Of a stretch of DNA of 64,000 bases, positions 32,232 through 63,132 are shown piece after piece (the stretch's first letter is position 1; each line of letters begins with the position of its first letter). This DNA comes from a virus (taxonomy: Duplodnaviria > Caudoviricetes). The translations under genes and the position numbers were made by a program. Below the pieces are notes generated by a model. That model saw only the letters and a program-made list of their open reading frames with translations. It had not been told where the DNA came from and did no database searches. The stretch lies in IMG/VR virus record IMGVR_UViG_3300043427_002668; one strand, given 5' to 3'.

Positions 32232-32552
32232 ATGAAATCTTTCAAGCAATTTATCTCAGAATCGGTTAATATTGCTGGTGATTTCACAGGAAATCTTTAT
32301 ATTAATTCTCAACCAGAACCACAACAACAAGTTGGTGAAGAATATGTTGCGGACATAATCTGGGAAGGGAACTTATATCGTTTAGAGTTAATTACTAAAA
32401 ACGGAATTCCATCTACTAGAGAACTTGGTGAACAGTTGCAATCCAATTATCCTGGTGCAATCGTTCATCAAATTTATCCGGTGATAGAAAAGAATTTAAA
32501 CATAAAGAACGCGCAGAGATATCATCCATCAAAATTGGAATGGATTGATTGA
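32232..32552 (+). CDS. Hypothetical protein with a capsid-targeting-like leader
   Basis: True start is the ATG at 32232 (MKSFKQFISE), which resembles the T4 internal-protein leader MKTYQEFIAE. Confidence 0.8.
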   Translation: MKSFKQFISESVNIAGDFTGNLYINSQPEPQQQVGEEYVADIIWEGNLYRLELITKNGIPSTRELGEQLQSNYPGAIVHQIYPVIEKNLNIKNAQRYHPSKLEWID

Positions 32553-32554
32553 TT

Positions 32555-33286
32555 ATGGGGTTTAAAAGCTATATTTGGGATGAACAATTTGATTTAAATG
32601 TTGCTCTTGGTAGAGTTCGTGGTGCATCATCTATTCATAAGTTTGGAGCTACTCCTCTACAGTCAAATAACACTACAGCAACTGTATGGGATAAACCAGA
32701 TACTCTATATCCATGGACAGCATTTAACACTCCAGGAGTTCTCGTTGCAGGACAAGCAAATGCATCCGATGATGGTAAGCAAGTTACTATTATTGGGTTA
32801 GATGAAAATTGGAACGAAATAACAGAAATTTTTACTCTATCCAGCGCAGCAACGGTATCCGGAACTAAAACATTCAAAAGAGTTTATCGTGGTTATGTTT
32901 CTAGTGGTGGACAAAATATAGGAAATGTTAGTTTTAATAGAGATGGAACTGAGGTTCTTAGAATTACTGCAGGTCTTGGTCAAACTTTAATGTCAATATA
33001 CAGTGTTCCTGCAGGATACACTGCTTTTCTTTATCAAGGAACAGCATCTACTCAAGTTGGTGCTGATGGGACTGGATTTATGTACGTAAGATATACTGAC
33101 GAAACTGTATTTAGAGTTGGGCATACATTTGAGGTTGATGGTTCTGGCGGACAATATTTTTATAAATTTGCATTTCCTCAAAGGATACCAGAAAAGAGTG
33201 ACGTAGATATTCGAATTACAAGTAGATCTAATAATGGAAGATTTACTGCGGCATTTGATATACTTTTAATCAAAAATGAATTATGA
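32555..33286 (+). CDS. Hypothetical beta-rich protein, probably virion-associated
   Basis: Long ORF in the head-assembly cluster with Gly/Thr-rich composition; no recognised family. Confidence 0.7.
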   Translation: MGFKSYIWDEQFDLNVALGRVRGASSIHKFGATPLQSNNTTATVWDKPDTLYPWTAFNTPGVLVAGQANASDDGKQVTIIGLDENWNEITEIFTLSSAATVSGTKTFKRVYRGYVSSGGQNIGNVSFNRDGTEVLRITAGLGQTLMSIYSVPAGYTAFLYQGTASTQVGADGTGFMYVRYTDETVFRVGHTFEVDGSGGQYFYKFAFPQRIPEKSDVDIRITSRSNNGRFTAAFDILLIKNEL

Positions 33287-33329
33287 GAGATAATTCAAAT
33301 AATAAATAACTAATAATAATCATATACAA

Positions 33330-33596
33330 ATGCAAAGGACAAAAGTATTTGAAACTGAAGAGGCAACTGGTTCTTCGGCGGGTGCGGCAACTAGTATTAG
33401 TAATGCCACTTGCATCAGATTGCATAATACAACTTCTGGTATTGTTACAGTTGGTGTTTCAACGATTGTTGGAGCAGCAACTACAATTTATTTTTCTATG
33501 CCAGGAAACTCGGTTGAGTTTTTAGAAAAACTCCCAACAGATGTTATTTGGACATCTTCAGCAATTAAGGCATCAAAAGTAGGATTTACCAACTAA
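33330..33596 (+). CDS. Small hypothetical protein upstream of gp21
   Basis: Preceded by ATAAATA (33302-33308); beta-strand-like S/T/G composition. Confidence 0.75.
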   Translation: MQRTKVFETEEATGSSAGAATSISNATCIRLHNTTSGIVTVGVSTIVGAATTIYFSMPGNSVEFLEKLPTDVIWTSSAIKASKVGFTN

Positions 33597-33600
33597 GAAA

Positions 33601-34251
33601 ATGAAACTTATCACCGAAGAAATAGAATCAGTAGAAGTTATTACCGAAGAAAAGAACGGTCAAAAAACTCTTTATATTCAAGGTCCTTTTCTACAAACTG
33701 AAGTTGTAAACAGGAATGGTAGAATGTACCGTATGCCTGTTATGGAAAGGGAAGTACGGCGTTATACAGAACAGTATGTAAATAAAGGTCGTGCTCTTGG
33801 TGAATTAGGGCATCCAGATGGGCCAACTGTAAATTTGGATCGTGTTTCTCATAAGATTGTTGAACTTCGTCGTGAGGGAAATAACTTCATTGGTAAGGCA
33901 CAAATTCTTTCTACCCCAATGGGTAAGATTGCAGAATCACTTCTTAAAGAAGGAGTGACTCTGGGAGTTTCTTCTCGCGGTATTGGTTCGGTGAGACCAA
34001 CAAGAGAGGGATATACTGAAGTTGGCGAAGACTTTATGTTAGCAACTGCTGCTGATATTGTTGCCGATCCTTCTGCTCCCGATGCATTCGTTCAAGGAAT
34101 TATGGAAGGCAAAGAATGGGTATGGGATGGTGGAATGCTAAGAGAAAGGGTAGCGGAAAACACTAAACGTAGAATAAATACTCTAGTTGATGAGGGTATT
34201 TTAGAAGAGTATAAATTATCTCTCTTCATCGAGTTCTTAAACTCATTGTAA
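33601..34251 (+). CDS. gp21: Prohead protease gp21
   Basis: NRNGRMY, RALGELGHPDGPTVNLDRVSH, LGVSSRGIGS, DIVADPSAPDAFV. Confidence 0.97.
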   Translation: MKLITEEIESVEVITEEKNGQKTLYIQGPFLQTEVVNRNGRMYRMPVMEREVRRYTEQYVNKGRALGELGHPDGPTVNLDRVSHKIVELRREGNNFIGKAQILSTPMGKIAESLLKEGVTLGVSSRGIGSVRPTREGYTEVGEDFMLATAADIVADPSAPDAFVQGIMEGKEWVWDGGMLRERVAENTKRRINTLVDEGILEEYKLSLFIEFLNSL

Positions 34252-34261
34252 TTTATTAAAT

Positions 34262-34269
34262 TATAAATA
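34262..34269 (+). promoter_or_regulatory. T4 late promoter TATAAATA
   Basis: Exact consensus upstream of gp22. Confidence 0.85.
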
Positions 34270-34307
34270 AATATAGTTTATAACTAAAGGTTAAACGGAG
34301 AGTTCAA

Positions 34308-35468
34308 ATGTCTCGTGGAGATTTACAAGAAATGGAAGTAGGCACAAAGCAATCCAGAACCGCTGTTAATGCAAATGCAAAAGCGGCAGACGCGATGCCA
34401 AAACTATCAGGCAATATTCCTGATGGTCAAACAGCAGGTTGGGAAGATCTTGGTGGCCCAACGCCAGAAAATTATAAGTCTGATGATGATTCAGCAAAAC
34501 TCAAAACACCAGGATCAACTCTTAAGCAAGTTAAGGATGTTGTAAATAAGGGTGCTGGTGCTGCTGATGCAATGAAAGGAATGAAAGAGGAAGAAGAACT
34601 CGAAGATGAGGACCTCATCGAAGAAGAAACCGAAGAAGAGGAAATCGTAGAAGCTAAGGAAGAAGAAGAGGAAGAAGAGGGCGGTAAGAAAAAAGAGGAA
34701 GAAGAAAAGGAAGAAGAGGGCGGTAAGAAGAAAATGGAAGAAGAGTTTGACATCGAAGAAGATGTTAATGCTCTTCTAGAAGGTGAAGAACTCTCAGAAG
34801 AGTTCCAAGAGAAGGCACGTATTATCTTCGAAGCTGCTATTAATTCTAGAGTTTCTCAAATTCAAGAAGCAATCGAAGAGCAATATGCAAATGCTCTTGC
34901 TGAAGAAGTTGCAGAAATTAAGTCTCAACTTTCTGAGCGTGTAGACGCTTATCTTGAGTATGTTGCTGATGAGTGGATGCAAGAAAATTCACTCGTTATC
35001 GAACAAGGTCTTAAGACCGAAATGACCGAATCATTCCTCCAAGGAATGAAGGGTCTTTTTGAAGAACATTATGTATCAATCCCTGAAGATAAATATGATG
35101 TGCTTGAGAGCATGGTAGAAAAACTTGATGAAATGGAGACAAAACTCAACGAGCAAATCGAAAAGAATGTTTCCCTAAACAAGCGTCTCGCAGAGGCGGT
35201 TGCGGATGGAATCTTTGAACAAGTCACTGAAGGTCTTGCAGACACTCAGAAAGACAAGCTCGCTTCACTTGCCGAAAGTGTTGAGTTTGAAAGTGAAGAA
35301 GAATATCGTGAAAAACTGGAGACTTTGAAGGAATCATATTTCCCTTCAAGAGTTGTTTCTCCAAAAACTAAAGCAGATACTCTTTCAGAAGGAGTAAGCT
35401 CTGATTATGAGTCACACTCACCATCAATGGCTGCTTATCTCAAGAGTCTCTCAGCATTTAGTAAATAA
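34308..35468 (+). CDS. gp22: Prohead scaffold protein gp22
   Basis: Highly acidic coiled-coil; LSEEFQEKARIIFEAA and YLEYVADEW motifs; lies between gp21 and gp23. Confidence 0.93.
   Translation: MSRGDLQEMEVGTKQSRTAVNANAKAADAMPKLSGNIPDGQTAGWEDLGGPTPENYKSDDDSAKLKTPGSTLKQVKDVVNKGAGAADAMKGMKEEEELEDEDLIEEETEEEEIVEAKEEEEEEEGGKKKEEEEKEEEGGKKKMEEEFDIEEDVNALLEGEELSEEFQEKARIIFEAAINSRVSQIQEAIEEQYANALAEEVAEIKSQLSERVDAYLEYVADEWMQENSLVIEQGLKTEMTESFLQGMKGLFEEHYVSIPEDKYDVLESMVEKLDEMETKLNEQIEKNVSLNKRLAEAVADGIFEQVTEGLADTQKDKLASLAESVEFESEEEYREKLETLKESYFPSRVVSPKTKADTLSEGVSSDYESHSPSMAAYLKSLSAFSK
34670..34729 (+). repeat. Direct repeat GAAGAAGAGGGCGGTAAGAA x2 (39-nt period) in the poly-Glu/Lys tract of gp22
   Basis: Read directly; encodes EEEGGKK twice. 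Confidence 0.85.
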
Positions 35469-35528: not shown

Positions 35529-36962
35529 ATGTTTCATTCAGAACATCTGCAGGAAAAGTGGGCACCTCTCTTAGACTATCAGGGTCTTGATCCAATCAAA
35601 GATTCTCATCGTAGAGCTGTAACCGCTGTCCTGCTCGAAAACCAAGAAAAATTCCTCAGAGAGCAAAGTGCATTTGAGCACGGTTCCATGAATATGCTCA
35701 TGGAAGCTCCAACCAATAGTGGTAACGCTGCTGGTGCATCAGGTGCATTTGGTGGTAGTGCTGCTGCAGGTGGTCCTACCGCAGGTTTTGATCCAGTTCT
35801 AATTTCACTCATTCGCCGTTCAATGCCTAACCTGGTCGCTTATGACCTGGCTGGCGTTCAACCAATGAGTGGTCCTACTGGACTCATCTTCGCAATGCGC
35901 TCACGCTACACCAATCAAAGTGGCACCGAGACCTTCTACAATGAAGTAGATTCTTCATTCTCAGGTCAGGATGCTGGGTTTGACGTTACTGCTGGTTTCG
36001 CACAAACCTCAACTGGTATTGGTACTACCACTCAGAGAGGCGATAACCCATCTGTCCTCAACGCTGCTTCAGTTGCTGCTGGTGACTATAACGTCGGTAG
36101 CGGAATGCCAACAGGCGATTCAGAGAACCTTGATGGTACCGGAAGCAATGCTTTCAACCAGATGGCATTCTCAATTGAGAAAGTCACGGTTACTGCAAAG
36201 TCACGCGCTCTGAAAGCCGAGTACTCACTTGAGCTCGCTCAAGACCTTAAAGCAATCCACGGTCTGAATGCTGAAGCGGAATTAGCAAACATTCTCTCAA
36301 CTGAGATTCTTGCTGAGATCAACCGCGAAGTTATTCGTACCATTTACATGGTTGCTGAAAAGGGTGCTTCCCAGAACGTTGCTACCGCTGGTGTATTTGA
36401 CCTCGACGTTGACTCCAATGGTCGTTGGTCGGTTGAAAAGTTCAAGGGTCTTCTGTTCCAAATTGAGAGAGATGCTAACGCTATCGCTCAAAGAACTCGT
36501 AGAGGAAAGGGCAACATCATCATGTGCTCTGCTGACGTTGCTTCAGCACTGACCATGGCTGGTGTTCTCGACTACACCCCTGCACTCAACGCTAATCTCC
36601 AGGTAGACGACACTGGCAACACCTTTGCTGGTACTCTGATGGGTAAGTATCGCGTATATATCGATCCTTATTCAGCAAACCTCACCGCAGCTAATGGTGC
36701 TCCAACAGGTGGCAACCAGTACTACGTTGTTGGTTATAAGGGTTCTTCACCTTATGACGCTGGACTCTTCTATTGTCCTTATGTTCCTCTCCAAATGGTT
36801 CGTGCCGTTGGCGAGAACTCCTTCCAGCCCAAGATTGGCTTCAAGACCCGTTATGGTCTCGTTGCTAACCCATTCGCAGAAGGAACCACTCAGGGTCTTG
36901 GTCGTCTCACAACCAACAGCAACCGCTACTACAGAAGAGTTGCTGTTAAGAACCTCATGTGA
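35529..36962 (+). CDS. gp23: Major capsid protein gp23
   Basis: DPVLISLIRR, GVQPMSGPTGLIFAMR, KSRALKAEYSLELAQDLKAIHGL, FQPKIGFKTRYG. Confidence 0.98.
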   Translation: MFHSEHLQEKWAPLLDYQGLDPIKDSHRRAVTAVLLENQEKFLREQSAFEHGSMNMLMEAPTNSGNAAGASGAFGGSAAAGGPTAGFDPVLISLIRRSMPNLVAYDLAGVQPMSGPTGLIFAMRSRYTNQSGTETFYNEVDSSFSGQDAGFDVTAGFAQTSTGIGTTTQRGDNPSVLNAASVAAGDYNVGSGMPTGDSENLDGTGSNAFNQMAFSIEKVTVTAKSRALKAEYSLELAQDLKAIHGLNAEAELANILSTEILAEINREVIRTIYMVAEKGASQNVATAGVFDLDVDSNGRWSVEKFKGLLFQIERDANAIAQRTRRGKGNIIMCSADVASALTMAGVLDYTPALNANLQVDDTGNTFAGTLMGKYRVYIDPYSANLTAANGAPTGGNQYYVVGYKGSSPYDAGLFYCPYVPLQMVRAVGENSFQPKIGFKTRYGLVANPFAEGTTQGLGRLTTNSNRYYRRVAVKNLM

Positions 36963-43749: not shown

Positions 43750-45889
43750 AGACCTTGTGGTGGAGCATAAAAAGGTTGAGACTGCCTGCTTTAACGTCCA
43801 TACGCGGGTTCTGACGCTGCCTCTCTGGGAGAAGGCTAGCGGGACCGTCTACGACCTTCTGGTGGGTCACGAAGTGGGTCACGCACTCTTCACGCCTGAT
43901 GAGGACTGGACCGAGACTGCAAAGGTTCCCGCTCAGTTTGTGAATGTCGTAGAGGACGTTCGCGTTGAGAAACTGATGAAGCGTAAGTATGCTGGTCTTG
44001 CTAAGACTTTCTTTGGTGGATATAAGGAACTGAATGAGGAGGATTTCTTTCAACTTGAGGGTGAAGATGTCTCTACCTTTAATCTTGCTGATAAAGTAAA
44101 TCTTTACTATAAAGTCGGTAACTTCCTTTCTCTGGATTTCACTCCAGAAGAAAAGGAGATTGTTGACCTGATTGGTGCAACGGAAACGTTTGCAGATGTT
44201 CTGATTGCTTCTGAGGAACTTTATAAGTACTGTAAGAAAGAACAGCAACAACAGCAGAAAGTTGCTGACTTTGATAATCACGAAACTCAAAGTGCTTCTA
44301 CTTCTCCTAATGGTGAAGATGCTGAAATGGAGCAACCTCAGGACGAGCAAGAGGGTCAATCTAACGAATCAGAATCTACTCAATCTGAGGAGAATAGCGA
44401 TAATGAAGGACCCGCTCAAAGTCAACAAAATACTACTTCACCTTCTAACACTCAGGAAGAACCTGAAGTTCGTACTGCAGAATCTCTGGATGATAAACTT
44501 CGCAGTCTGGTAAATCAGCACGGTGAAGATAATGTGTATGTAGAACTGCCTCAAGTCAATCTTGAGACGATTATTGCGAAGAACTCTGAGGTTCATAAAG
44601 AACTTGATGACTGCTTTAATCATCAGCAGAGGAATATGGATGCTTTGAATGAAGCAAATAACGCACCTCTTTGGAGTCTTTATAAGAATGTAGACCTTGA
44701 GTTTCAGAAGTTCAAGAACTCCGCTCAGAAAGAAGTTAACTATCTTGTGAAGGAGTTTGAGTGCCGTAAAGCAGCAGATAGTTATTCCCGTGCTTCTACT
44801 GCTCGCACAGGTGTTCTAGATACTGCTCGTCTTCATTCTTATAAGTTTAGCGAAGACCTTTTCAAGAAAGTGACTGTTCTTCCTGATGGTAAGAATCACG
44901 GACTTATCTTCATTCTGGATTGGAGTGGTTCTATGCAGAATGTCCTTCTGGATACCTGTAAGCAACTCTTTAACCTGATTTGGTTCTGTAAGAAGGTTTC
45001 CATTCCTTTTGAGGTTTATGCTTTCACAAATGAATGGCGTCGTTATGAATATGACTATGAAACTGGTAAGTATATTTCTTCCGATAGAACTTCTCATTAT
45101 GAGAAGAAAGAAAGTGTGATTGCGATTGATGAAAGTTTCTCTCTGATGAACCTTCTTACTAGTAAAGTTTCTGGTAAGCAACTGGAAAATCAAATGAAGA
45201 ACATTTGGCGTCTTGCTGCGTATTTTAACAACACCTATCACTCTCCTTATACGTATCCCAATCGTTTGTGTCTTTCTGGAACTCCTCTGAATGAGGCTCT
45301 GATTTGCCTTAATCAGATTATTCCTCAGTTTCAATCTCAAAACAAACTTCAGAAGGTTCAGTGTATTGTTTTGACTGATGGTGAAGCACCTCCGCTTCCC
45401 CGTCACGTTGAAGTGAAGCGTGGTTGGGAAAGTGAGCCCTACCTTGGAACCCGTCATATCAATCCTGATAACTCTTTCCTGCGTGATAGGAAGACTGGTA
45501 TGAACTACAAGTTTGGATACGATTATCACGGATATACTGATACTCTTTTGAAGAACCTGAAGGACAAGTTTCCTTCTGTTAATCTGATTGGTATTCGTGT
45601 CCTTGAAAGTCGTGATGCAAATCGCTTCATTCAACTTTATCATTCTTGGAAGGATAAGAAGTATGATGTAATCCAGAGTGACTGGAAGAAGAATAGGAGT
45701 TTTATTATCACCAACTCTGGTTATGATGCATACTTTGGAATGTCTGCAGCAGCACTTTCTCAGGATGCTGACTTTGAGGTTGCTGAATGTGCTTCTAAAG
45801 CACAAATCAAATCTGCTTTTGTGAAGTCTCTGAAAACTAAAAAACTAAATAAAAAAGTTCTTGGTGAGTTCATTTCACTCGTCGCATAA
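43697..45889 (+). CDS. Zincin-like peptidase domain + acidic linker + vWA domain protein (CobT-like architecture)
   Basis: HEVGH (HExxH); Q/E/S-rich linker; MIDAS DWSGS, SGTPL, LTDGE. Start is the ATG at 43697. Confidence 0.85.
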   Translation: MPVRHEIKSQLAKLLATEDLVVEHKKVETACFNVHTRVLTLPLWEKASGTVYDLLVGHEVGHALFTPDEDWTETAKVPAQFVNVVEDVRVEKLMKRKYAGLAKTFFGGYKELNEEDFFQLEGEDVSTFNLADKVNLYYKVGNFLSLDFTPEEKEIVDLIGATETFADVLIASEELYKYCKKEQQQQQKVADFDNHETQSASTSPNGEDAEMEQPQDEQEGQSNESESTQSEENSDNEGPAQSQQNTTSPSNTQEEPEVRTAESLDDKLRSLVNQHGEDNVYVELPQVNLETIIAKNSEVHKELDDCFNHQQRNMDALNEANNAPLWSLYKNVDLEFQKFKNSAQKEVNYLVKEFECRKAADSYSRASTARTGVLDTARLHSYKFSEDLFKKVTVLPDGKNHGLIFILDWSGSMQNVLLDTCKQLFNLIWFCKKVSIPFEVYAFTNEWRRYEYDYETGKYISSDRTSHYEKKESVIAIDESFSLMNLLTSKVSGKQLENQMKNIWRLAAYFNNTYHSPYTYPNRLCLSGTPLNEALICLNQIIPQFQSQNKLQKVQCIVLTDGEAPPLPRHVEVKRGWESEPYLGTRHINPDNSFLRDRKTGMNYKFGYDYHGYTDTLLKNLKDKFPSVNLIGIRVLESRDANRFIQLYHSWKDKKYDVIQSDWKKNRSFIITNSGYDAYFGMSAAALSQDADFEVAECASKAQIKSAFVKSLKTKKLNKKVLGEFISLVA

Positions 45890-45892
45890 ATA
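45886..45892 (+). promoter_or_regulatory. Late promoter variant ATAAATA overlapping the upstream stop
   Basis: Lies 20 nt upstream of the MKTFQEFMCE ORF. Confidence 0.65.
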
Positions 45893-45912: not shown

Positions 45913-46203
45913 ATGAAAACCTTTCAAGAGTTTATGTGCGAGTTATATCAACTTGATGAAAATGTTTCTAGTGGTCGCACTAAAGTAAGAAATGTGAAGC
46001 AAAGAGTAAGTTCTGCCGAAGTTATTACTAACACTCAAAGACAAAATAAAATCGCACAGCATTTTGCCGACCACGCTGCTAAAAAGAAAGCGGCAGGGGA
46101 CGAAGCTCATGCTGCAGCAACTAAATCTGGTAAAAGTCCTGCAGAGGCAGAAGCACATCGCCAGAGAGCACACAGAAATTATGAAAAACAAATGAGACGA
46201 TAA
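45913..46203 (+). CDS. Basic protein with a capsid-targeting-like leader
   Basis: MKTFQEFMCE start, near-identical to T4 MKTYQEFIAE; K/R/A-rich body. Confidence 0.8.
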   Translation: MKTFQEFMCELYQLDENVSSGRTKVRNVKQRVSSAEVITNTQRQNKIAQHFADHAAKKKAAGDEAHAAATKSGKSPAEAEAHRQRAHRNYEKQMRR

Positions 46204-49644: not shown

Positions 49645-50094
49645 ATGGAACTCAACGGAATTACCTACAAACAATCAAAAACTTATCCAGACATTTATGT
49701 AAGTGCTTGTGGTAAAATTCTAAATGTAAAACCTATTGGAAGAGTTGATAAAAGAGATGGTTATGTTGTAGTTCGTGAAAAACGACTTCATCAACTTGTG
49801 GTAGAATGTTGGGGGGAACCAAGACCAAAAGGTATAGATTGGTGTATAGACCATATTGATGAAAATAAAACCAACAACAAAGTTGAAAACTTGAGATGGT
49901 TGCCTCGTTCAGAAAACACAAGAAGGTCTCAAATTGGAAAATCAAATCCAAGAAAAGCAGTAGTTCAAATGGAACCTGACGTGAAAGGAGAAATTATGAA
50001 TCTTTCCAGTCAGGGATTGTCCCAAAGACAAGTTGCTGATATTATGGGAAAAAGTCAAAAAAGTATTTGGAATGTATTAAATGGAGTTTATTGA
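49645..50094 (+). mobile_element. Free-standing HNH homing endonuclease (NUMOD4-like/HNH/HTH)
   Basis: DHIDENKTNNKVENLRW...EN HNH core; C-terminal HTH LSQRQVADIMGKSQKSIWNVL. Confidence 0.85.
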
Positions 50095-52821: not shown

Positions 52822-53256
52822 ATGACTAACCTTTCACGATATACTACTGCGGATCTTTCTACTTTGTTGGATAAGATTACTCGCAACAGTATTGGAATGG
52901 ACGAATATTTTGATCGCCTATTCAATCTTCATGAAACTACCTCTAATTATCCGCCATACAATCTTGTTCAAGTAAGCAATGTAGAATCTCGCTTAGAACT
53001 TGCACTTGCCGGATTTAAGAAGGAGGAGGTTTATGTATACACAGAGTATGGAAAACTTTTTGTTGAAGGACAAAAGGAAGACCGAGAAACTGATACCCGC
53101 TACGTCCATAAGGGATTGGCTCAAAGAAGTTTTAAGAGAGCATGGACATTATCCGATGACACAACAATCAAGGATGTCACTTTCGAGGATGGATTGTTAA
53201 CTATTGTTCTTGGTAAGATTGTTCCAGAACATCATACTCGTAAAGATTATCTCTAA
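52822..53256 (+). CDS. hsp20: Small heat shock protein Hsp20
   Basis: NYPPYNL, LELALAGF, YVHKGLAQRSF, FEDGLLTI alpha-crystallin motifs. Confidence 0.96.
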   Translation: MTNLSRYTTADLSTLLDKITRNSIGMDEYFDRLFNLHETTSNYPPYNLVQVSNVESRLELALAGFKKEEVYVYTEYGKLFVEGQKEDRETDTRYVHKGLAQRSFKRAWTLSDDTTIKDVTFEDGLLTIVLGKIVPEHHTRKDYL

Positions 53257-53259
53257 ATA
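53253..53259 (+). promoter_or_regulatory. Late promoter variant CTAAATA overlapping the hsp20 stop
   Basis: Located 9 nt upstream of the ATG at 53269. Confidence 0.55.
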
Positions 53260-53268: not shown

Positions 53269-53448
53269 ATGAAATCTTTCGAAGAGTTCAAAGAAATTGC
53301 ATATAAAAATGCAATTCCTCACACTGTTTATTCTGGAGGAAAATCAAAAAAAATTCCAAAAAGAAAAGCAGTTCCTGTAAGAAGTCGCTCAAGTGCTGGT
53401 GGTAATGGAGATGGTGGAGATGGAAGTGGGGGAGATGGTGGAGAATAA
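53269..53448 (+). CDS. 59-aa protein not in the ORF track, with a capsid-targeting-like leader
   Basis: MKSFEEFKEIAYKNAIPHTVYSGGKSKKIPKRKAVPVRSRSSAGGNGDGGDGSGGDGGE*. Confidence 0.7.
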   Translation: MKSFEEFKEIAYKNAIPHTVYSGGKSKKIPKRKAVPVRSRSSAGGNGDGGDGSGGDGGE

Positions 53449-53936: not shown

Positions 53937-54135
53937 AGAGGTAAGTGCTGATATTGGAGAACCTGACTGTAAGTTAGTTAAACCATTCACAGTCACTAAA
54001 GATAAAACATTAGAACCTTTCCTAATGGGTTATACTAAACAAGATACATTTATGATGAGTTCGGACAAGATTCTCACACTCTCTGATCCAACTCCAACAC
54101 TTCTTGAAAAATATGAGGATTTGATTAAGGAATGA
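53878..54135 (+). CDS. Conserved hypothetical protein, predicted Sm-like fold
   Basis: IKVLLLTNNQILITQI...LVKPFTV...EPFL; its stop overlaps the gp43 ATG. Confidence 0.7.
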   Translation: MKLIKVLLLTNNQILITQIEEVSADIGEPDCKLVKPFTVTKDKTLEPFLMGYTKQDTFMMSSDKILTLSDPTPTLLEKYEDLIKE

Positions 54136-55403
54136 GATTTTATACTAATGTTCAATTGATTGGAAATCAGTTTTTGGTTCGTGGGGTAGAAAATGGAAAA
54201 AGATTTGAAACAAGAGATGAGTTCTTCCCAACTCTTTATGTGAAAACTAAAAAAGATTCTAAATATCGAACATTAAGTGGCGAAGCAGTTGAACCAGTAA
54301 ATCCGGGAACAGTTCGTGACTGTCGTGAATTTTATAATAAGTATGAAAGTGTAGATGGATTTGAGATCTACGGAAATGACCGTTATATCTACCAATACAT
54401 TTCGGAAAAATATCCGGACGATGAAATTAAGTTTGATATCAGTAAAATCAAACTTGTAACTCTAGATATTGAGGTTGCATCAGAAGCAGGATTCCCTGAT
54501 GTAGAATCTGCATCTGAAGAAATCCTTTCTATCTCTATTCAGGATTATACAACAAAGAAGATTATTACTTGGGGAGTTAAACCATTCAATAACACCCGCA
54601 AGGATGTGACTTATCATCATTGCCCCTCTGAGTATGAACTTCTCAATCACTTCATCAATTATTGGATGGTGGATGTTCCTGATGTGATTACAGGATGGAA
54701 CATCCAGATGTATGACGTTCCTTATATCTGTAAGAGACTGAATCGTGTTCTTGGTGAGAAACTGATGAAACGGTTCTCTAACTGGGGACTTGTGACTGAG
54801 GGTGAAGTATTCATCAATGGACGCAAGCACACCACATTTGATGTAGGTGGTTTGACTCAACTTGACTATTTGGATCTTTATAAGAAATTTACTTATAAAG
54901 TTCAGGAATCTTATCGTCTAGATTATATTGCTGAAGTGGAACTGGGACAGAAAAAACTGGATCACTCTGAGTTTGATACATTCAAAGATTTCTACACCAA
55001 AGGATGGCAGAAGTTCATTGAATATAACATCATTGACGTAGAACTTGTTGACCGTCTGGAAGACAAGATGAAACTGATTGAACTTGCTCTGACGATGGCA
55101 TATGACGCAAAGGTGAATTATGCTGATGTGTTTTATCAGGTTCGTATGTGGGATAATATCATCTACACATATCTCAAGAAGAAGAACATTGTAATCCCCC
55201 CAAAGAACAAGACTAAGAAAGATGAAAAGTATGAAGGTGCTTATGTAAAAGAACCTATTTCTGGTATGTATGATTATGTTGTAAGTTTCGATTTGAACAG
55301 CCTTTATCCCCACCTTATTATGCAATACTCAATATCCCCAGAAACTCTTGTGAGTATGGATGATGTAAATAAGAGGATTGCAGAACTCGAAAGTATGCTA
55401 TAA
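54132..55403 (+). CDS. gp43: DNA polymerase gp43, N-terminal fragment (3'-5' exonuclease + motif A) with a novel C-terminal tail
   Basis: LDIE, TGWNIQMYD, YNIIDV exonuclease motifs; SFDLNSLYP motif A; ends ISPETL-VSMDDVNKRIAELESML*. Confidence 0.95.
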   Translation: MRFYTNVQLIGNQFLVRGVENGKRFETRDEFFPTLYVKTKKDSKYRTLSGEAVEPVNPGTVRDCREFYNKYESVDGFEIYGNDRYIYQYISEKYPDDEIKFDISKIKLVTLDIEVASEAGFPDVESASEEILSISIQDYTTKKIITWGVKPFNNTRKDVTYHHCPSEYELLNHFINYWMVDVPDVITGWNIQMYDVPYICKRLNRVLGEKLMKRFSNWGLVTEGEVFINGRKHTTFDVGGLTQLDYLDLYKKFTYKVQESYRLDYIAEVELGQKKLDHSEFDTFKDFYTKGWQKFIEYNIIDVELVDRLEDKMKLIELALTMAYDAKVNYADVFYQVRMWDNIIYTYLKKKNIVIPPKNKTKKDEKYEGAYVKEPISGMYDYVVSFDLNSLYPHLIMQYSISPETLVSMDDVNKRIAELESML

Positions 55404-55411
55404 TATAAATA
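55404..55411 (+). promoter_or_regulatory. T4 late promoter TATAAATA directly after the gp43-N stop; overlaps an extended -10 TGCTATAAT (55396-55404)
   Basis: Both motifs read directly from the sequence. Confidence 0.75.
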
Positions 55412-55430
55412 GGATATAGATAGTTTATAA

Positions 55431-55970
55431 ATGAAAAGAGAGTATCCTATGTATGTTTATCAATACAAAGATGATGATAAAGTTTTTTATGTTGGTATGG
55501 GGCAGGGGTATAGAATGTGGGCTCACTTAAAACCAAGTTCTTATATGCCATATGATGCAAATTATCCATCTTTCTATGGTAAAATAAAATCTATTTTTTT
55601 GTCGGGAAGAGAACCATTTGTTGAAAAGATTTTTGAGGGAACAAAAAAAGAATGTTTAGTCTTAGAAGAAGAACTTATTGAAAAGTATAAATTGATAAGT
55701 GAAGGTGGAACACTTTATAATATTTCAAAAAAAAGTGGTGGTAGAGTAAAAGGTAAATCATATCCTATGAGTGAAAATACCCGTCAAAGGTATAGAGAAA
55801 CTATGAGACAAAATAGAACTTATAAAATTGAAAGTGAAGATTTGAGAAAATTGTATATTATTGAGAATAAGACAAGGAAGCAAATTGCCGAACATTATAA
55901 TTGTAGTGAAGTATTGATTAAACAAAGATTAAAAGAGTTTGGTATTAAAAAAATTACTAAAATACTATGA
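55431..55970 (+). mobile_element. Free-standing GIY-YIG-type endonuclease inserted in the polymerase gene
   Basis: YVYQY...VFYVGMGQGYRMWAH (GIY-YIG variant), downstream E..E and LYN motifs, NUMOD3-like segment and C-terminal HTH. Confidence 0.8.
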
Positions 55971-57325
55971 ATAATAATATGTGGAAAGATGTTCGTCAAA
56001 TGTCTCCTCAAGAAATTAAAGAGGAATTGGAAGCACTTAAGAAAGTAAGAGAACTTTCTAATCAAGTGAATGTTGATAAACTTCTTAATCAAGAATTGGA
56101 TTTAGAACCTTTGCGAAAAGTCAATTTGACTATTACTGCAAACGGAGCACTTTATCGTAGAGTAAATGGTTTTCTTCCTGAACTGATGGAGAAGATCTAC
56201 AATGAACGTGTGATCTTCAAGAAGAAGATGCTTGCTGCAGAACAACAGTATGAGAAGACTAAAACAAAAGAGTTGGAAAAGGAAATTGCGCGATGTAATA
56301 ACATCCAAATGGCGAGGAAGATTCAGCTTAACTCTGCTTATGGTGCTATTGGCAATCAGTATTTCCGTTACTATAAACTAGCAAACGCTGAAGCGATTAC
56401 TCTTTCCGGTAAGGTTTCAATTCAGTGGATTATGAATAAGATGAACTCCTACATAAACAAAATTCTTAAAACAGATGGTGAAGATTATGTTATTGCTTCT
56501 GATACTGATTCTATCTATCTCAATATGGGTCCTTTGGTTGAAACTGTATTCAAAGGAAGAGAGAAAACTACTCAAGACATTGTTTCGTTCCTTGATAAGG
56601 TGTGTCAAGTGGAACTTGAAAAATATATTGAAAGTTCTTATCAAGAATTGGCGAATTATGTAAACGCTTACGATCAGAAGATGATTATGAAGCGTGAGTG
56701 TATTGCTGAACGTGGTATTTGGACTGCGAAGAAACGATACATTCTGAGTGTATGGGATAGTGAAGGTGTTCGATATGAATCACCCAAACTGAAAATCAAG
56801 GGTATTGAAGCAATCAAATCTTCTACTCCTGCTCCTTGTCGTAAGATGCTGAAAGAAGCATTTAATATTCTGATGAGTGGAAGTGAAGATGATATGATTC
56901 AGTTTATTGATGATTTCCGCAATAAATTTAAGAAATTACCACCTGAAGAAATCTCATTCCCACGTTCTGCGTCTGACGTTCAGAAATATACATCACACTC
57001 TCAAATTTATGTAAAGGGAACTCCGATTCATGTTCGTGGAGCACTTCTCTTTAATTATTATGTCAAAGAAAATAACCTGACTGGAAAATATTCTTTGATT
57101 CAGAACGGAGAAAAGATCAAGTTTGTTTACCTCAAGAAACCAAATACGATTCATGAGAATGTAATCTCATTTATTCAGGAGTTTCCCAAGGAACTGAATC
57201 TTGACAAATACATAGATTATGAATTACAATTTGAGAAAGCATTTCTAGAACCACTCAAAGTTATTCTTGATATTATTGGGTGGAATATGGAAAAGACAGT
57301 AAACCTTGATTCATTTTTTGCCTAA
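55967..57325 (+). CDS. gp43: DNA polymerase gp43, C-terminal fragment (fingers, palm, thumb) with a novel N-terminal extension
   Basis: KIQLNSAYG (motif B), SDTDSIY (motif C), KKRY, clamp-binding tail LDSFF; the ATG overlaps the endonuclease stop (ATGA). Confidence 0.95.
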   Translation: MNNNMWKDVRQMSPQEIKEELEALKKVRELSNQVNVDKLLNQELDLEPLRKVNLTITANGALYRRVNGFLPELMEKIYNERVIFKKKMLAAEQQYEKTKTKELEKEIARCNNIQMARKIQLNSAYGAIGNQYFRYYKLANAEAITLSGKVSIQWIMNKMNSYINKILKTDGEDYVIASDTDSIYLNMGPLVETVFKGREKTTQDIVSFLDKVCQVELEKYIESSYQELANYVNAYDQKMIMKRECIAERGIWTAKKRYILSVWDSEGVRYESPKLKIKGIEAIKSSTPAPCRKMLKEAFNILMSGSEDDMIQFIDDFRNKFKKLPPEEISFPRSASDVQKYTSHSQIYVKGTPIHVRGALLFNYYVKENNLTGKYSLIQNGEKIKFVYLKKPNTIHENVISFIQEFPKELNLDKYIDYELQFEKAFLEPLKVILDIIGWNMEKTVNLDSFFA

Positions 57326-60361: not shown

Positions 60362-60434
60362 GGGGAATTAGCTCATTTGGTAGAGCACCGCCTTTGCACG
60401 GCGGGGGTGAGGGGTTCGAGTCCCCTATTCTCCA
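60362..60434 (+). tRNA. trnA: tRNA-Ala (anticodon TGC), CCA not encoded
   Basis: Acceptor GGGGAAT/ATTCTCC with the G3:U70 Ala identity pair; anticodon stem CCGCC/GGCGG, loop TTTGCAC; TTCGAGT T-loop. Confidence 0.97.
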
Positions 60435-60463
60435 TTCTAAATATAAGTAAATAGTCATTAAAA

Positions 60464-61801
60464 ATGACAGATACTGAAGTATTGCTAGCTGTAAATATTG
60501 CTTTAAAAAACTACCAAACTAAAGTAGTTAAAGCTGGTCCAAAGGTAGATAAAATCAGAATAATTGCTTCTCAGAGAGCAGAAGCACAAGATCTTATATC
60601 CAAAGAACTTAAGAAAAGAGGAGTTCAATTTGTTAATGAAATTGATAAAAGCGAATCTTCTTTTCCAGTAACTAAAATAGAATTAAAAAAATCAAAATCT
60701 ATTATAAAGTTAATATATAAAAAAGGTGCAGGTGGTGGATCAGGTGCTGGTGCAGCAGTAACTAAGTTAGCCGAATCATCTCAGGCTTTGTATGCTGCGA
60801 TGGCATTTAATGTTTTGAAAAGGGAAATTACAAATAAAGATTTAACAAAAGAAAACTTTCAAAAAGCACTCGCAACTGCTGATACTGATGAAAGTTTTCA
60901 AAAAATGGTGAATGATTTACCTGATGATTGGATAGAGTCATCTATAGCAGGTGCTAATGCCTTATTTAAGATGTATGGTGGAAGTGGAAAATATACTTTT
61001 CATAGAGGATCAAAATCTGTAGAAATTATAGAAAATACGTTTACTAAAATTAATAGAGAAGAACGTGCTTTTGGTAATCTTAATAAATGGAGTCCTGCTG
61101 ATATATACATGATTTCGGATTCTTCTGCCATCAGAGATATATCAGAAGAAAAAACTCTTAAGGGACTGAATGAAAAAATGTTTGAGTACATTCAAAGTAA
61201 AAAGGTGATAGGAGTTTCTTTGAAGAAGAATGAAAGTGGTAAGGCAAAAATAACACCAAAAAATTTTCCAACAGATAAAAAAATAACAACAGCATCATTT
61301 AAAGGAACTACTACAAATTTAGATGCTATGGATGGTTATATTCAATGGGGATCTGCTCCAAGTGAAAAAATTCAATTTAGAAGTTTTGGTGGAGAAACTT
61401 CATTGACTGGATGGCAGGGAGAAATTAAAGGAGCGTCTGCAAATCAAGGTAAAGTTTCTCTTGGTCCATTAAACTATATTTTAAAAAGACACGGATTTAA
61501 AGAACTACCTTCATCGCAAGAGTCTGCTAGGTTAGCGGAACAAAATACTGAGAAACACGCCAAAGATATATCAAAAATGATGGTGGATTATGGATTGATA
61601 AAAAGTGGAGATCTTGATGCTATGGCGTCAACAATTCAATCCAAATCAAACAAATATAGATATTCTAAGTATTTGGTTATGAGATTACTATTGACAATTA
61701 AGAATGCAAATAAAGATAAAGCAGATGAAGTTGTAAAGGATTTATATCTTTACGCAAGTTCTCAAGCAAGTTTTTCAGCACCTTACATAAAGTTAGAATA
61801 A
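60464..61801 (+). CDS. Hypothetical protein, probable PD-(D/E)xK-superfamily nuclease
   Basis: ES.Q helix, NKWSPADIY...VIGVSLKK pattern; preceded by CTAAATA (60437-60443). Confidence 0.6.
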   Translation: MTDTEVLLAVNIALKNYQTKVVKAGPKVDKIRIIASQRAEAQDLISKELKKRGVQFVNEIDKSESSFPVTKIELKKSKSIIKLIYKKGAGGGSGAGAAVTKLAESSQALYAAMAFNVLKREITNKDLTKENFQKALATADTDESFQKMVNDLPDDWIESSIAGANALFKMYGGSGKYTFHRGSKSVEIIENTFTKINREERAFGNLNKWSPADIYMISDSSAIRDISEEKTLKGLNEKMFEYIQSKKVIGVSLKKNESGKAKITPKNFPTDKKITTASFKGTTTNLDAMDGYIQWGSAPSEKIQFRSFGGETSLTGWQGEIKGASANQGKVSLGPLNYILKRHGFKELPSSQESARLAEQNTEKHAKDISKMMVDYGLIKSGDLDAMASTIQSKSNKYRYSKYLVMRLLLTIKNANKDKADEVVKDLYLYASSQASFSAPYIKLE

Positions 61802-61807
61802 TAAATA
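61801..61807 (+). promoter_or_regulatory. Late promoter variant ATAAATA
   Basis: Lies 20 nt upstream of the ATG at 61828. Confidence 0.65.
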
Positions 61808-61827
61808 AAGGTATAAGATTAAACAAT

Positions 61828-63132
61828 ATGAAGAGTTTCTTTACATTTTTATCAGAAGCAACACAATCACAAGCATCTCAGCAGGCTCAAAAAATGGGTT
61901 TGAAAGGAGACGGTCACGGCGGTTGGTTGGATCGTTCTGGTAAAGTCGTAGCAAGAACTGATAAAGGAAAACTGAAGTTCATTGATGGTCGCCAAGCAGC
62001 AGGAGCACAGGAACCCGCTGCAGCACCAAGGCAGTCAGGTGCAGCCCCTATGCCTCAGCAACCTCAAGGAGCACAAGCACCCGCTCCTGCCGCCCCTCAA
62101 GCACCTGGAGCAGCACCACAGGACCAAGAGCAACAACAGGAACTTCCACCACTGACTGTCGTATTTGGTCGTTTTAATCCACCAACAGTCGGACACGAAA
62201 AACTTCTAAAGTCTGCAAAGAGAATTTCTGCTGGTGGAGACATTAAGATCTATCCATCAAGATCTCAAGATCCAAAGAAAAATCCATTGGATCCAAATAA
62301 AAAAGTTTCGTTTATGAAGAGGATGTTCCCTGAGTTTAAGGATAACATCATTAACGATGATGAGATGAAGACCATCTTTAACGTTCTTGTTTCTGCTAAC
62401 GAAGATGGATACACAAGTGTAAACATTGTTGTTGGTTCTGATCGTCAGGCAGAGTTTGAGAACCTAGCGCAAAAGTACAATGGAGATCTTTATACCTTCG
62501 ATCAAATTCGTGTAATCTCCGCCGGTGTTCGTGATGCAGATGCTGAAGGTGTAGAAGGAATGTCTGCATCCAAGATGAGAAAGGCGGTAATGGATAATGA
62601 CTTTGCATCATTCCGTAGAGGAACTCCAAAGACATTGGATGATGGAGATACTCAAACACTCTTTGATGCAGTTCGTCAGGGAATGGGTGCGAAGAAAGCA
62701 TCAAAAGTCAAAAAGGAGAGTTATAATCTCTGGGAGATTGCTCCAAAATGTGATATGAGAAATCTTCGTGAAAATTATGTGAGAGGTAGAATTTTTAGAA
62801 TTGGAGATAAGGTTGAGAACTTAAATACTGGGTTGATTGGTGAAGTAATGCGTAGAGGAACCAATCATTTAATCTGTGTAACAGAAGAAGGTTATATGTT
62901 TAAATCTTGGATTAAGGATTTGATGGAATATACTGAAGTGAAAATGGATAGTCCAATGAGAGATAAGACGCATCCAAATACTTTGGTGGGAACTTTGGGT
63001 GCATTTAAGCATTATGCAAAAATGACCCCAGGAGTAATAGGAACCAATAGTCAGTATCTTCAGAAAGGTGGTAAGGCATACGGAGTCAATTTCATAAATA
63101 AGTATAAGGCAAAGAAAGCAAGTACTTATTAA
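61828..63132 (+). CDS. Cytidylyltransferase-like (HIGH-superfamily nucleotidyltransferase) protein with a capsid-targeting-like leader
   Basis: MKSFFTFLSE leader; Q/P/A linker; FGRFNPPTVGH (HxGH variant), VVGSDR, GMSASKMR. Confidence 0.85.
   Translation: MKSFFTFLSEATQSQASQQAQKMGLKGDGHGGWLDRSGKVVARTDKGKLKFIDGRQAAGAQEPAAAPRQSGAAPMPQQPQGAQAPAPAAPQAPGAAPQDQEQQQELPPLTVVFGRFNPPTVGHEKLLKSAKRISAGGDIKIYPSRSQDPKKNPLDPNKKVSFMKRMFPEFKDNIINDDEMKTIFNVLVSANEDGYTSVNIVVGSDRQAEFENLAQKYNGDLYTFDQIRVISAGVRDADAEGVEGMSASKMRKAVMDNDFASFRRGTPKTLDDGDTQTLFDAVRQGMGAKKASKVKKESYNLWEIAPKCDMRNLRENYVRGRIFRIGDKVENLNTGLIGEVMRRGTNHLICVTEEGYMFKSWIKDLMEYTEVKMDSPMRDKTHPNTLVGTLGAFKHYAKMTPGVIGTNSQYLQKGGKAYGVNFINKYKAKKASTY

What the first reader, a model, noticed from the sequence alone, without database searches (positions are those of the whole stretch)
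32232..63132. Dispersed set of late genes carrying T4 capsid-targeting-like leaders
Seen: four unrelated ORFs start MKSFKQFISE (32232), MKTFQEFMCE (45913), MKSFEEFKE (53269) and MKSFFTFLSE (61828). Three sit in replication-gene territory, each directly behind its own (A/C)TAAATA box. Known: T4 internal proteins use MKTYQEFIAE for prohead packaging, are cut after the Glu by gp21 and are injected (IPI blocks a restriction enzyme). Inference: these are a packaged and injected cargo set, with candidate anti-defence or host-takeover roles.
Basis: partly seen in the sequence, partly recalled or inferred. Interest (0 to 1): 0.75.

Follow-up and report, generated by a model that had tools for sequence, protein, structure and literature searches.

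The report
T4-style head-targeting leaders in a cyanophage
Four late genes of this T4-like marine cyanophage start with the short "address tag" that phage T4 uses to load proteins into its head. This offers a mechanism for why one of them, an NMNAT-like enzyme, keeps turning up in purified particles of related phages, and it marks the others as probable packaged cargo.

Summary
The window is a T4-like cyanomyovirus (about 75% nucleotide identity to S-SM2 and Bellamy). ORFs at 32232, 45913 and 61828 start M-K-[ST]-F-x-x-F-[ILM]-x-E: 3 hits against 0.02 expected by chance. The same pattern recovers T4 ipII and ipIII. The ORF at 53269 has only the first seven residues of the motif.

- In 55 distinct homologues of the 434-aa nucleotidyltransferase, leader positions 1, 2, 4, 7, 10 and 11 are invariant and position 8 is Leu in 53 and Ile in 2, with synonymous codon variation. 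T4 mutagenesis mapped targeting to positions 4 and 7 and processing to 8 and 10.
- A late-type ATAAATA box lies about 20 nt upstream.
- Orthologues were found by mass spectrometry in S-SM1 and S-SCSM1 virions.
- The 45913 gene sits in a hypervariable slot where relatives keep the promoter and leader but swap very basic bodies. Its body is a module always preceded by a [LIV]-x-E protease-type site.
- The window encodes the gp21-type protease (Peptidase_S77) and the gp22 scaffold.

The 53269 family lacks a conserved cleavage Glu, so it is the weakest case. Packaging, cleavage, injection and anti-defence roles are untested in this phage. This scan has made similar notes on other cyanophage DNA. 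Verdict: new members of a known kind.

The parts
32232..32552 (+). P0001, 106 aa. Leader MKSFKQFISE|S followed by a small beta-beta-alpha-beta domain. Lies in the head-gene cluster between portal and gp21, coupled to the upstream 53-aa ORF (TGATATG overlap).
   Evidence: phrog_1742. The leader MK[SNT][FY]xxF[ILM]xES is kept in isolates at 47-75% identity. The body domain resembles residues 390-441 of the virion-protein-family gene at 23799-25517. The fold has no significant PDB match.
45886..45892 (+). Late-type box ATAAATA (CATAAATA with the preceding base), 20 nt before the P0002 ATG.
   Evidence: The same promoter string CATAAATACCTAAAAAGTAT heads leader-bearing and structural late genes in 35 viral contigs.
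45913..46203 (+). P0002, 96 aa, basic (net +8). Leader MKTFQEFMCE, then a second canonical site L-D-E|N at residue 16, then the 80-aa 'NVSSG...HRNYEKQ' module.
   Evidence: It occupies a hypervariable slot between the conserved peptidase and the 61-aa gene plus cobS. The module is preceded by [LIV]-x-E in 21 of 21 protein clusters.
53253..53259 (+). Late-type box CTAAATA overlapping the hsp20 stop codon, only 9 nt before the P0003 ATG.
   Evidence: The gp3 gene at 37030 has the same short spacing (11 nt).
53269..53448 (+). P0003, 59 aa. Has only the first half of the leader (MKSFEEF), then a basic middle and a Gly/Asp-rich tail. A real conserved gene without a conserved cleavage Glu.
   Evidence: At least 116 relatives in viral contigs. 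Codon-position diversity is 5.2 / 3.5 / 13.0, and position 9 is Glu in only 2 of 50 distinct homologues.
61801..61807 (+). Late-type box ATAAATA, 20 nt before the P0004 ATG.
   Evidence: The box is present in nearly all of the 80 related loci, mostly at the same distance of about 20 nt.
61828..63132 (+). P0004, 434 aa. Layout: leader MKSFFTFLSE|A; conserved N-domain (11-55, GDGHGGW); disordered Pro/Gln/Ala linker (56-104); HIGH-type nucleotidyltransferase domain (about 106-290, TVGH and SASKMRK motifs); C-terminal beta domain and tail.
   Evidence: Orthologue of T4-GC190, S-SCSM1 ORF91 (60% identity) and Syn9 gp184.
33601..34251 (+). gp21-type prohead protease, the presumed processing enzyme.
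   Evidence: Pfam Peptidase_S77, E 2e-36. 42% identical to T4 gp21.
34308..35468 (+). gp22-type scaffolding core protein, the presumed docking matrix, with 21 [LI]-x-E sites.
   Evidence: Pfam T4_CASP, E 1e-82. Site count.
23799..25517 (+). 572-aa modular late protein (DUF5661 ... DUF6321) of the cyanophage GC119 virion-protein family. It contains a copy of the P0001 body domain. A relative built on the same frame carries the P0002 module instead.
   Evidence: L232 / P0012.
60464..61801 (+). 445-aa late gene with its own TCTAAATA box, homologue of S-SCSM1 ORF90 (a virion protein). First gene of the late block that holds P0004.
63134..64000 (+). Gene cut by the window end, starting MSINPLNDISRVYL. 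Homologue of S-SCSM1 ORF92 (a virion protein). The same N-terminus heads several carriers of the P0002 module in other phages.

Best explanation
The four ORFs are late genes of a T4-like cyanomyovirus. Their N-termini are the cyanophage counterpart of the T4 capsid-targeting sequence (CTS).

Proposed mechanism (inferred by analogy with T4, not shown here):
1. A late sigma factor (gp55, encoded in the window) transcribes them together with the head genes.
2. The short amphipathic leader, anchored by aromatic residues 4 and 7, takes the protein into the gp22/gp21 scaffolding core while the prohead assembles.
3. The Peptidase_S77 protease then cuts after Glu10 in [ILM]-x-E, freeing the mature protein inside the head. 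From there it can leave with the DNA at infection.

This fits best for P0004, the NMNAT-like nucleotidyltransferase, whose orthologues are found in virions. It fits well for P0001 and P0002. P0002 is probably trimmed further at L-D-E16 to release an 80-aa basic module.

P0003 has only the targeting half of the leader. If it is packaged at all, it probably keeps its N-terminus.

My estimated odds of packaging: P0004 about 0.75; P0001 and P0002 about 0.55; P0003 about 0.35. Injection and an early anti-defence or takeover role (for example NAD+ resynthesis by P0004) are plausible but untested.
For: - Motif and positive control. The strict pattern gives 3 hits against 0.02 expected. The same pattern finds T4 ipII and ipIII (MKTYQEFIAE) in the T4 record. 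Relatives' genomes carry 1-3 hits each, always on the gene strand, against 0-1 for the reversed control.
- Selection acts on the peptide, not the DNA. In 55 distinct P0004 homologues M1, K2, F4, F7, E10 and A11 are invariant and position 8 is Leu in 53 and Ile in 2. Positions 5, 6, 9 and 12 vary, and codons vary synonymously (AAA/AAG 29/26, TTT/TTC 38/17, TTA/CTA/TTG). Across the window's four genes Ser3 uses TCT in two and AGT in one. T4 mutagenesis mapped targeting to positions 4 and 7 and processing to 8 and 10 (PMC9026906).
- Machinery is present. Peptidase_S77 and T4_CASP are encoded in the window. The window's gp23 has an L-M-E|A site at residue 59.
- Late expression signals.
- Virion evidence in relatives. 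T4-GC190 was found in S-SM1 virions (PMC3037559). The NMNAT ORF91 of S-SCSM1 was MS-detected, and NMNAT-like proteins were reported in further cyanophage virion proteomes (S-CBWM1 and another estuarine phage), with the authors unsure why (PMC9602691; PMC10665884). ORF91 is 60% identical to P0004 and starts MKSFLQFLKE.
- Cassette behaviour like the T-even IP locus. In at least 13 contigs the slot between the peptidase (58-93% identity) and cobS (77-96%) keeps the promoter and leader. The bodies it holds are different mosaic proteins with net charge +17 to +44.
- Protease-site logic. The P0002 module is preceded by [LIV]-x-E in 21 of 21 clusters, whatever the carrier.
- The body domains recur inside known virion-protein families: the P0001 domain in the GC119-family gene, and the P0002 module in NPLNDIS-type proteins.
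Against: - There is no proteomic, N-terminal or expression data for this phage. Every functional step is by analogy.
- The S-SCSM1 orthologue of P0001 (75% identical) is annotated 'hypothetical protein', not 'virion protein', while both of its neighbours are flagged.
- P0002 has Met rather than Leu/Ile at position 8.
- The P0003 family has no conserved Glu at positions 9 or 10 and no [LI]-x-E site anywhere. Its box lies only 9 nt from the ATG.
- T4 itself has an uncharacterised ORF, gp61.1, that starts MKTFKEFIKE and lies next to the primase gene. I know of no evidence that gp61.1 is packaged, so the motif alone does not prove packaging.
- The authors of the virion proteomes caution that abundant late proteins may co-purify with particles (PMC9602691, PMC10665884).
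Confidence: 0.65

Rival explanations
1. The shared start is a recombination linker, not a targeting signal. Promoter, ribosome site and first codons are kept because gene cassettes are swapped by homologous recombination at these conserved ends, and the peptide itself has no function.
For: The slot after the peptidase gene does exchange bodies while keeping promoter and leader. The promoter string is nearly identical between the window and G002.
Against: Downstream of the ATG the DNA diverges while the residues are kept. Examples are window ATGAAAACCTTTCAAGAGTTT against G002 ATGAAGACCTACCAACAATTC and Ser3 as TCT or AGT. In P0004, which is a fixed core gene and not a cassette, the leader is invariant at exactly the positions T4 needs, with synonymous variation. 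The two ideas are compatible: a functional leader can also serve as a recombination joint.
Confidence: 0.1
2. The leader is a gp21-cleaved propeptide, or an assembly or regulatory helix, of late proteins that act in the infected cell or in the transient prohead core (like T4 gp67/gp68). These proteins would not stay in the mature head and would not be injected.
For: P0001 lies in the gp67/gp68 position between portal and protease. Its S-SCSM1 orthologue is not flagged as a virion protein. In T4, core fragments mostly leave the head (PMC9026906).
Against: P0004 orthologues do remain in CsCl-purified virions of several phages. P0001 shows no similarity to T4 gp67 or gp68. A 96-aa mature product is easily missed by shotgun proteomics.
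Confidence: 0.15
3. For P0003 only: the resemblance is partial and incidental. It would be a small late or middle protein with another role, neither packaged nor processed.
For: Only 7 of 10 leader positions match, and the 7-residue pattern is expected about once per window by chance. There is no cleavage Glu in the family. The box-to-ATG spacing is very short. The only similarity to T4 gp61.1 is the first 7 residues.
Against: M1, K2, E6, F7, I10 and A11 are invariant, and position 4 is always Phe or Tyr, in 50 distinct homologues under purifying selection. In T4 a leader that cannot be processed still targets (Asp10 mutant; PMC9026906).
Confidence: 0.5

Closest known systems
Phage T4 capsid-targeting sequence on internal proteins IPII and IPIII (and IPI, Alt); Mullaney and Black 1996, as reviewed in PMC9026906
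   Same: A ten-residue N-terminal leader M-K-[TS]-[YF]-x-x-F-[IL]-x-E followed by Ala or Ser. Aromatic residues at positions 4 and 7. An [IL]-x-E protease site. Late expression. A co-encoded Peptidase_S77 protease and gp22 scaffold. Small, basic, non-conserved cargo bodies. A relative (G004) even has MKTFQEFIAE, one residue away from the T4 leader.
   Different: The host group (marine picocyanobacteria) and phage family (Kyanoviridae, not Straboviridae) differ. The bodies are unrelated to IPI-III. The leader prefers Ser3 and Phe4. One cargo is a 434-aa enzyme that is core to cyanomyoviruses rather than an accessory gene. Targeting, cleavage and injection have not been shown experimentally for any cyanophage protein in the papers I could search.
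Hyperplastic IP loci of T-even phages (Repoila et al. 1994, cited as ref 69 in PMC9026906; the paper itself was not read here)
   Same: A fixed genomic slot with a conserved promoter and leader, and cargo bodies that are replaced between close relatives.
   Different: Here the slot lies between a conserved 'peptidase' gene and cobS. The bodies are mosaics of shuffled basic modules. Some modules also occur inside larger virion proteins behind other N-termini.
Virion-associated NMNAT-like 'cytidyltransferase' of cyanomyoviruses (T4-GC190; S-SM1, S-SCSM1 ORF91, S-CBWM1)
   Same: P0004 is an orthologue: 60% identical to S-SCSM1 ORF91, 61% to the S-SM2 protein, in the same gene neighbourhood. It has the HIGH-nucleotidyltransferase fold.
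   Different: The published reports leave open whether the enzyme is really packaged, and the passages I read do not mention the leader. The substrate is unknown: fold matches to NaMN/NMN adenylyltransferases and to PPAT score alike.
T4 gp67/gp68 prohead core proteins
   Same: P0001 and the preceding 53-aa acidic-tailed ORF occupy the same position between the portal and protease genes.
   Different: No sequence similarity. T4 gp67 and gp68 lack the CTS-type start.

Membership tests
T4-type CTS-bearing internal (packaged) proteins | N-terminal decapeptide matching M-K-T-[YF]-x-E-F-[IL]-x-E | tested here: met
   P0001, P0002 and P0004 match M-K-[ST]-F-x-x-F-[ILM]-x-E. The same pattern finds T4 ipII and ipIII. 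P0003 matches positions 1-7 only.
T4-type CTS-bearing internal (packaged) proteins | Conserved aromatic residues at positions 4 and 7 (targeting determinants in T4) | tested here: met
   F4 and F7 are invariant in 55 P0004 homologues. In 50 P0003 homologues position 4 is Phe or Tyr and F7 is invariant. In the P0001 family position 4 is Phe or Tyr and F7 is kept.
T4-type CTS-bearing internal (packaged) proteins | gp21-type cleavage site [L/I]-x-E at positions 8-10 | tested here: inconclusive
   Met for P0001 (I-S-E|S) and P0004 (L-S-E|A; E10 invariant and position 8 Leu or Ile). P0002 has M-C-E at 8-10 plus a canonical L-D-E at 14-16. Not met for P0003: no Glu at 9 or 10 in 48 of 50 homologues. 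This tests the presence of a site, not cleavage.
T4-type CTS-bearing internal (packaged) proteins | Phage encodes the gp21 prohead protease and the gp22 scaffolding core | tested here: met
   Peptidase_S77 E 2e-36 and T4_CASP E 1e-82. 42% identity to T4 gp21.
T4-type CTS-bearing internal (packaged) proteins | Late transcription | tested here: inconclusive
   Late-type boxes lie 9-20 nt upstream, and the box is conserved in relatives. P0001 is inside the head operon. No transcript data were available.
T4-type CTS-bearing internal (packaged) proteins | Protein physically present in purified virions | not testable with these tools
   Only indirect evidence. Orthologues of P0004 were MS-detected in S-SM1 and S-SCSM1, and NMNAT-like proteins in other cyanophage virion proteomes. 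The P0001 orthologue is not flagged in S-SCSM1. There are no data for P0002 or P0003.
T4-type CTS-bearing internal (packaged) proteins | Leader removed in the mature protein, and the protein ejected into the host | not testable with these tools
   No N-terminal or semi-tryptic peptide data were accessible, and no injection assay exists for cyanophages in the searched literature.
HIGH-motif nucleotidyltransferases (NMNAT / NaMNAT / PPAT superfamily), for P0004 | (H/T)xGH motif and ISxT-like second motif in a Rossmann-like fold | tested here: met
   GRFNPPTVGH and SASKMRK are invariant in 30 homologues. Foldseek probability is 1.0 with TM 0.6 (normalised by target length) to NaMN/NMN adenylyltransferases and PPAT. 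Pfam CTP_transf_like scores 18.2 bits, below the 21-bit cut-off.
HIGH-motif nucleotidyltransferases (NMNAT / NaMNAT / PPAT superfamily), for P0004 | NMN or NaMN substrate specificity (a true NMNAT) | not testable with these tools
   Fold matches to NMNAT, NaMNAT and PPAT are not separable. There is no PDB sequence hit. The 'NMNAT' label in S-SCSM1 comes from annotation, not an assay.

The most novel reading that the evidence does not exclude
T4-like cyanophages run a broad, modular cargo-loading system that nobody has described. It would include at least three interchangeable N-terminal address peptides: the CTS type, the MDAQELRNLQEAY type and the NPLNDISxVYL type. It would also include protease-released basic modules, each preceded by [LIV]-x-E, that move between stand-alone genes and large virion proteins, and a hypervariable arms-race slot. 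One core cargo, the NMNAT-like enzyme, would be injected with the DNA to rebuild NAD+ before any phage gene is expressed, countering NAD+-depleting host immunity.
Probability: 0.2. Interest if true: 0.8.

Novelty: new member of a known kind. Interest (0 to 1): 0.55.

Why it matters
Several cyanophage virion proteomes contain an NMNAT-like enzyme, and their authors could not decide whether it is packaged or a contaminant. A conserved T4-type targeting leader offers a concrete, testable mechanism. It also gives a simple sequence rule for listing the proteins that abundant ocean phages probably carry into Prochlorococcus and Synechococcus at the first moment of infection. Those proteins are natural candidates for host takeover and counter-defence. 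The hypervariable leader-tagged slot points to where that arms race is being fought.

Tried and rejected
- Complex prediction of the gp21 protease with P0004 residues 1-55 gave no verdict (score 0.00). It is not counted either way.
- The P0001 fold model has mean pLDDT 63, and only residues 36-83 are confident. It had no PDB match at E <= 0.001. The best small-domain resemblances (T7 Gp2, YkzG) are at chance level. The Atlas search returned only unnamed viral clusters.
- tblastn of P0002 and P0003 against isolated phages found nothing. Homologues appeared only in metagenomic viral contigs and in the 1.84-billion-protein library.
- I tested whether the other non-structural virion proteins of S-SCSM1 (ORF213 lysozyme, ORF214 carboxypeptidase) carry the leader. 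They are large genes in the baseplate cluster, and the pattern scan found no leader at them.
- P0001 and the 53-aa ORF are not homologues of T4 gp68 and gp67.
- The P0003 resemblance to T4 gp61.1 is limited to the first 7 residues.
- I looked for expression-class data for the orthologues. The paper I found concerns a different cytidylyltransferase.
- No whole genome is held for the window.
- Supplement Table S8 of PMC3037559 could not be located in the stored text.

Full report
**What the window is.** GC content is 35% and all 53 called genes lie on the + strand. The DNA is about 75% identical to Synechococcus phages S-SM2 and Bellamy and collinear with S-SM2. The gene order is: giant fibre-like genes, baseplate and neck genes, terminase, sheath, tube, portal (30349-32037), gp21 protease (33601-34251), gp22 scaffold (34308-35468), gp23 (35529-36962). 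Then follow gp3, uvsY, uvsW, gp55, gp47, gp46, a 'peptidase', cobS, gp45, gp44, regA, hsp20, gp43, uvsX, gp41 and a late block ending at the window edge. No whole genome is held for this window.

**Observation.** The four N-termini are exactly as reported.
- A scan of every start codon in six frames finds no other real ORF with the motif.
- The back-translated decapeptide pattern gives 3 hits against 0.02 expected.
- The seven-residue half gives 4 hits against 1.04 expected. The fourth ORF (53269) is therefore not significant by count alone.
- [ACT]TAAATA boxes are strand-biased (43 against 13) and strongly concentrated just upstream of starts: 19 of 43 lie in the 3.8% of positions that qualify.
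- Boxes precede known late genes (portal, scaffold, sheath, gp3).
- In the replication half of the window they precede only P0002, P0003, the 445-aa gene, P0004 and two homing-endonuclease-like ORFs.

**Positive control and breadth.** The same DNA pattern run on the T4 record returns ipII and ipIII, both MKTYQEFIAE, plus the uncharacterised gp61.1 (MKTFKEFIKE) beside the primase gene.
- In Syn9, P-SSM2, S-SCSM1, S-SM2 and four near-complete metagenomic relatives it returns 1-3 hits per genome, always on the gene strand. The reversed control gives 0-1.
- The hits are the cytidyltransferase orthologue, the P0001 orthologue and various small proteins. One of these, a 154-aa protein, starts MKTFQEFIAE.
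- S-PM2 had no strict hit.

**P0004 (61828-63132).**
- It matches PHROG 'cytidyltransferase'. The fold model shows a HIGH-type nucleotidyltransferase domain that matches NaMN/NMN adenylyltransferases and PPAT equally well (probability 1.0, TM about 0.6). The substrate is therefore open.
- Eighty related loci give 55 distinct starts. M1, K2, F4, F7, E10 and A11 are invariant, and position 8 is Leu in 53 and Ile in 2. Positions 5, 6, 9 and 12 vary freely, and codons vary synonymously.
- T4 mutagenesis assigned targeting to positions 4 and 7 and processing to 8 and 10 (PMC9026906). Those positions are among the conserved ones here.
- An ATAAATA box is present in nearly all of these loci, mostly about 20 nt upstream.
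- Leader plus N-domain is found in 109 isolate records.
- Literature: T4-GC190 is a cyanophage core gene detected in S-SM1 virions (PMC3037559).
- The S-SCSM1 NMNAT ORF91 was MS-detected, as were NMNAT-like proteins in S-CBWM1 and another estuarine phage (PMC9602691; PMC10665884). Those authors are explicitly unsure whether it is packaged or a contaminant.
- ORF91 is 60% identical to P0004 and starts MKSFLQFLKE. Both of its neighbours are virion proteins and are homologous to the window's neighbours.

**P0002 (45913-46203).** It has no relatives in isolates.
- The slot it occupies, between the peptidase and the 61-aa gene plus cobS, is conserved on both sides in at least 13 contigs (58-93% and 77-96% amino-acid identity).
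- In those contigs the slot holds different proteins of 192 to 441 aa. All start M-[KR]-T-[YF]-x-[EQ]-F-x-x-E, and all are very basic (net +17 to +44). They are built from shuffled shared modules, none of which is the window's body.
- Even the closest contigs (peptidase 91-93%, cobS 96%) carry a 394-aa protein there.
- The window's body is an 80-aa module (NVSSG...HRNYEKQ) found in 23 protein clusters.
- In all 21 clusters examined it is immediately preceded by [LIV]-x-E, the gp21-type site.
- The carrier can start with a CTS-like leader, with MDAQELRNLQEAY, with NPLNDISxVYL, or can be a GC119-type frame.
- In P0002 this site is L-D-E16. The likely mature product therefore starts at N17.

**P0001 (32232-32552).** It belongs to a virus-only family (phrog_1742).
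- The leader MK[SNT][FY]xxF[ILM]xES is kept in isolates down to 47% identity.
- It always lies in late structural clusters, next to virion proteins.
- Its folded core (residues 36-83) resembles residues 390-441 of the window's 572-aa GC119-family virion protein (29% identity over 52 residues, pairwise E 7e-5).
- The S-SCSM1 orthologue is not flagged as a virion protein.
- It is not related to T4 gp68.

**P0003 (53269-53448).** It is a real gene, with at least 116 relatives and codon-position diversity of 5.2 / 3.5 / 13.0.
- M1, K2, E6, F7, I10 and A11 are invariant.
- Position 9 is Glu only in the window and one other sequence, and the protein has no [LI]-x-E site.
- It has the targeting half of a CTS without the processing half.
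- In T4 an uncleavable leader still targets (PMC9026906). Packaging without cleavage is therefore possible but weakly supported.

**Machinery.** Peptidase_S77 (E 2e-36) and T4_CASP (E 1e-82) are present. The scaffold has 21 [LI]-x-E sites and gp23 has L-M-E|A at residue 59.

**Rivals.**
- A pure recombination-linker reading is contradicted by amino-acid-level conservation with synonymous change, and by the fixed core gene P0004 having the best-conserved leader.
- A 'transient core component, not retained' reading remains possible for P0001.
- Chance resemblance remains possible for P0003.
- T4 gp61.1 shows that the motif alone is not proof of packaging.

**Comparison with the known.** This works like the T4 CTS and internal-protein system and meets the sequence-level defining features. 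The experimental ones (virion presence in this phage, cleavage, ejection) cannot be tested here.
- Full-text searches for 'capsid targeting sequence' with 'cyanophage' returned only a T4 review. That review speculates that the CTS may be general among T4-like phages.
- In the passages I read, the cyanophage proteomics papers do not mention the leader.
- Subscription literature was not searchable, so prior mention cannot be excluded.
- Earlier notes of this scan describe the same leader on other cyanophage DNA. Those notes are unchecked AI notes, not independent evidence.

**Verdict.** These are new members of a known kind, with some new detail: the hypervariable slot, the protease-site-flanked module and the alternative leaders.

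Noticed in passing
L096, L100, L104, L105; L229, L231; P0008, P0011, P0021, P0028: A second recurrent N-terminus, M-[DN]-[AS]-Q-[ED]-[LFI]-R-N-L-Q-E-A-Y, heads different late proteins behind the same late promoter and carries the same NVSSG module. It contains L-Q-E|A, a canonical gp21-type site at residue 11, so it is a candidate alternative propeptide or targeting leader. It is not present in the window.
   Followed up: partly
window 63134-64000; P0015, P0018, P0019, P0022, P0023, P0026: A third shared N-terminus, M..NPLNDISxVYL, heads the window's last (cut) gene, which is the homologue of S-SCSM1 virion protein ORF92. It also heads several long carriers of the NVSSG module in other phages.
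   Followed up: partly
T4 record NC_000866 18966-19130, minus strand (L132, L140): T4 gp61.1 is a 54-aa hypothetical protein next to primase gene 61. It begins MKTFKEFIKE, a near-perfect CTS, and has a Gly-rich and acidic tail. I know of no report that it is packaged.
   Followed up: partly
window 54132-57325: The DNA polymerase gp43 is split at about residue 407 into two ORFs (54132-55403 and 55967-57325). The split is made by a 179-aa homing-endonuclease-like ORF (55431-55970) that has its own late-type box.
   Followed up: partly
window 49645-50094: A free-standing HNH endonuclease ORF sits between the gp45-side genes and gp44, also behind a TATAAATA box.
   Followed up: no
window 23799-25517: A 572-aa late protein with DUF5661 at the N-terminus and DUF6321 at the C-terminus, in the GC119 virion-protein family. 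The middle looks like a holder for exchangeable modules: here a P0001-like domain, and in L232 / P0012 the NVSSG module on the same frame.
   Followed up: partly
L120, L121: Two late proteins carry the CTS-like motif internally (..NPRARTFEEFVGICE.., around residues 58-72), after an N-terminal extension. This suggests leaders can be buried by fusion.
   Followed up: no
L090:1501-1962 (G004): A 154-aa late protein starts MKTFQEFIAE, one residue away from the T4 IPII/IPIII leader. It has no Pfam family.
   Followed up: no
ACG-2014f records: The leader plus GDGHGGW N-domain of P0004 matches two places per genome in the ACG-2014f phages. PHROG 3561 (934-aa profile) also shares this N-terminal 68 residues. 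The N-domain is therefore itself a portable module.
   Followed up: no
window 1303-9753 and 11351-19636: Two giant ORFs (2816 and 2761 aa) lie at the start of the window, presumably fibre or baseplate proteins. They were not examined.
   Followed up: no
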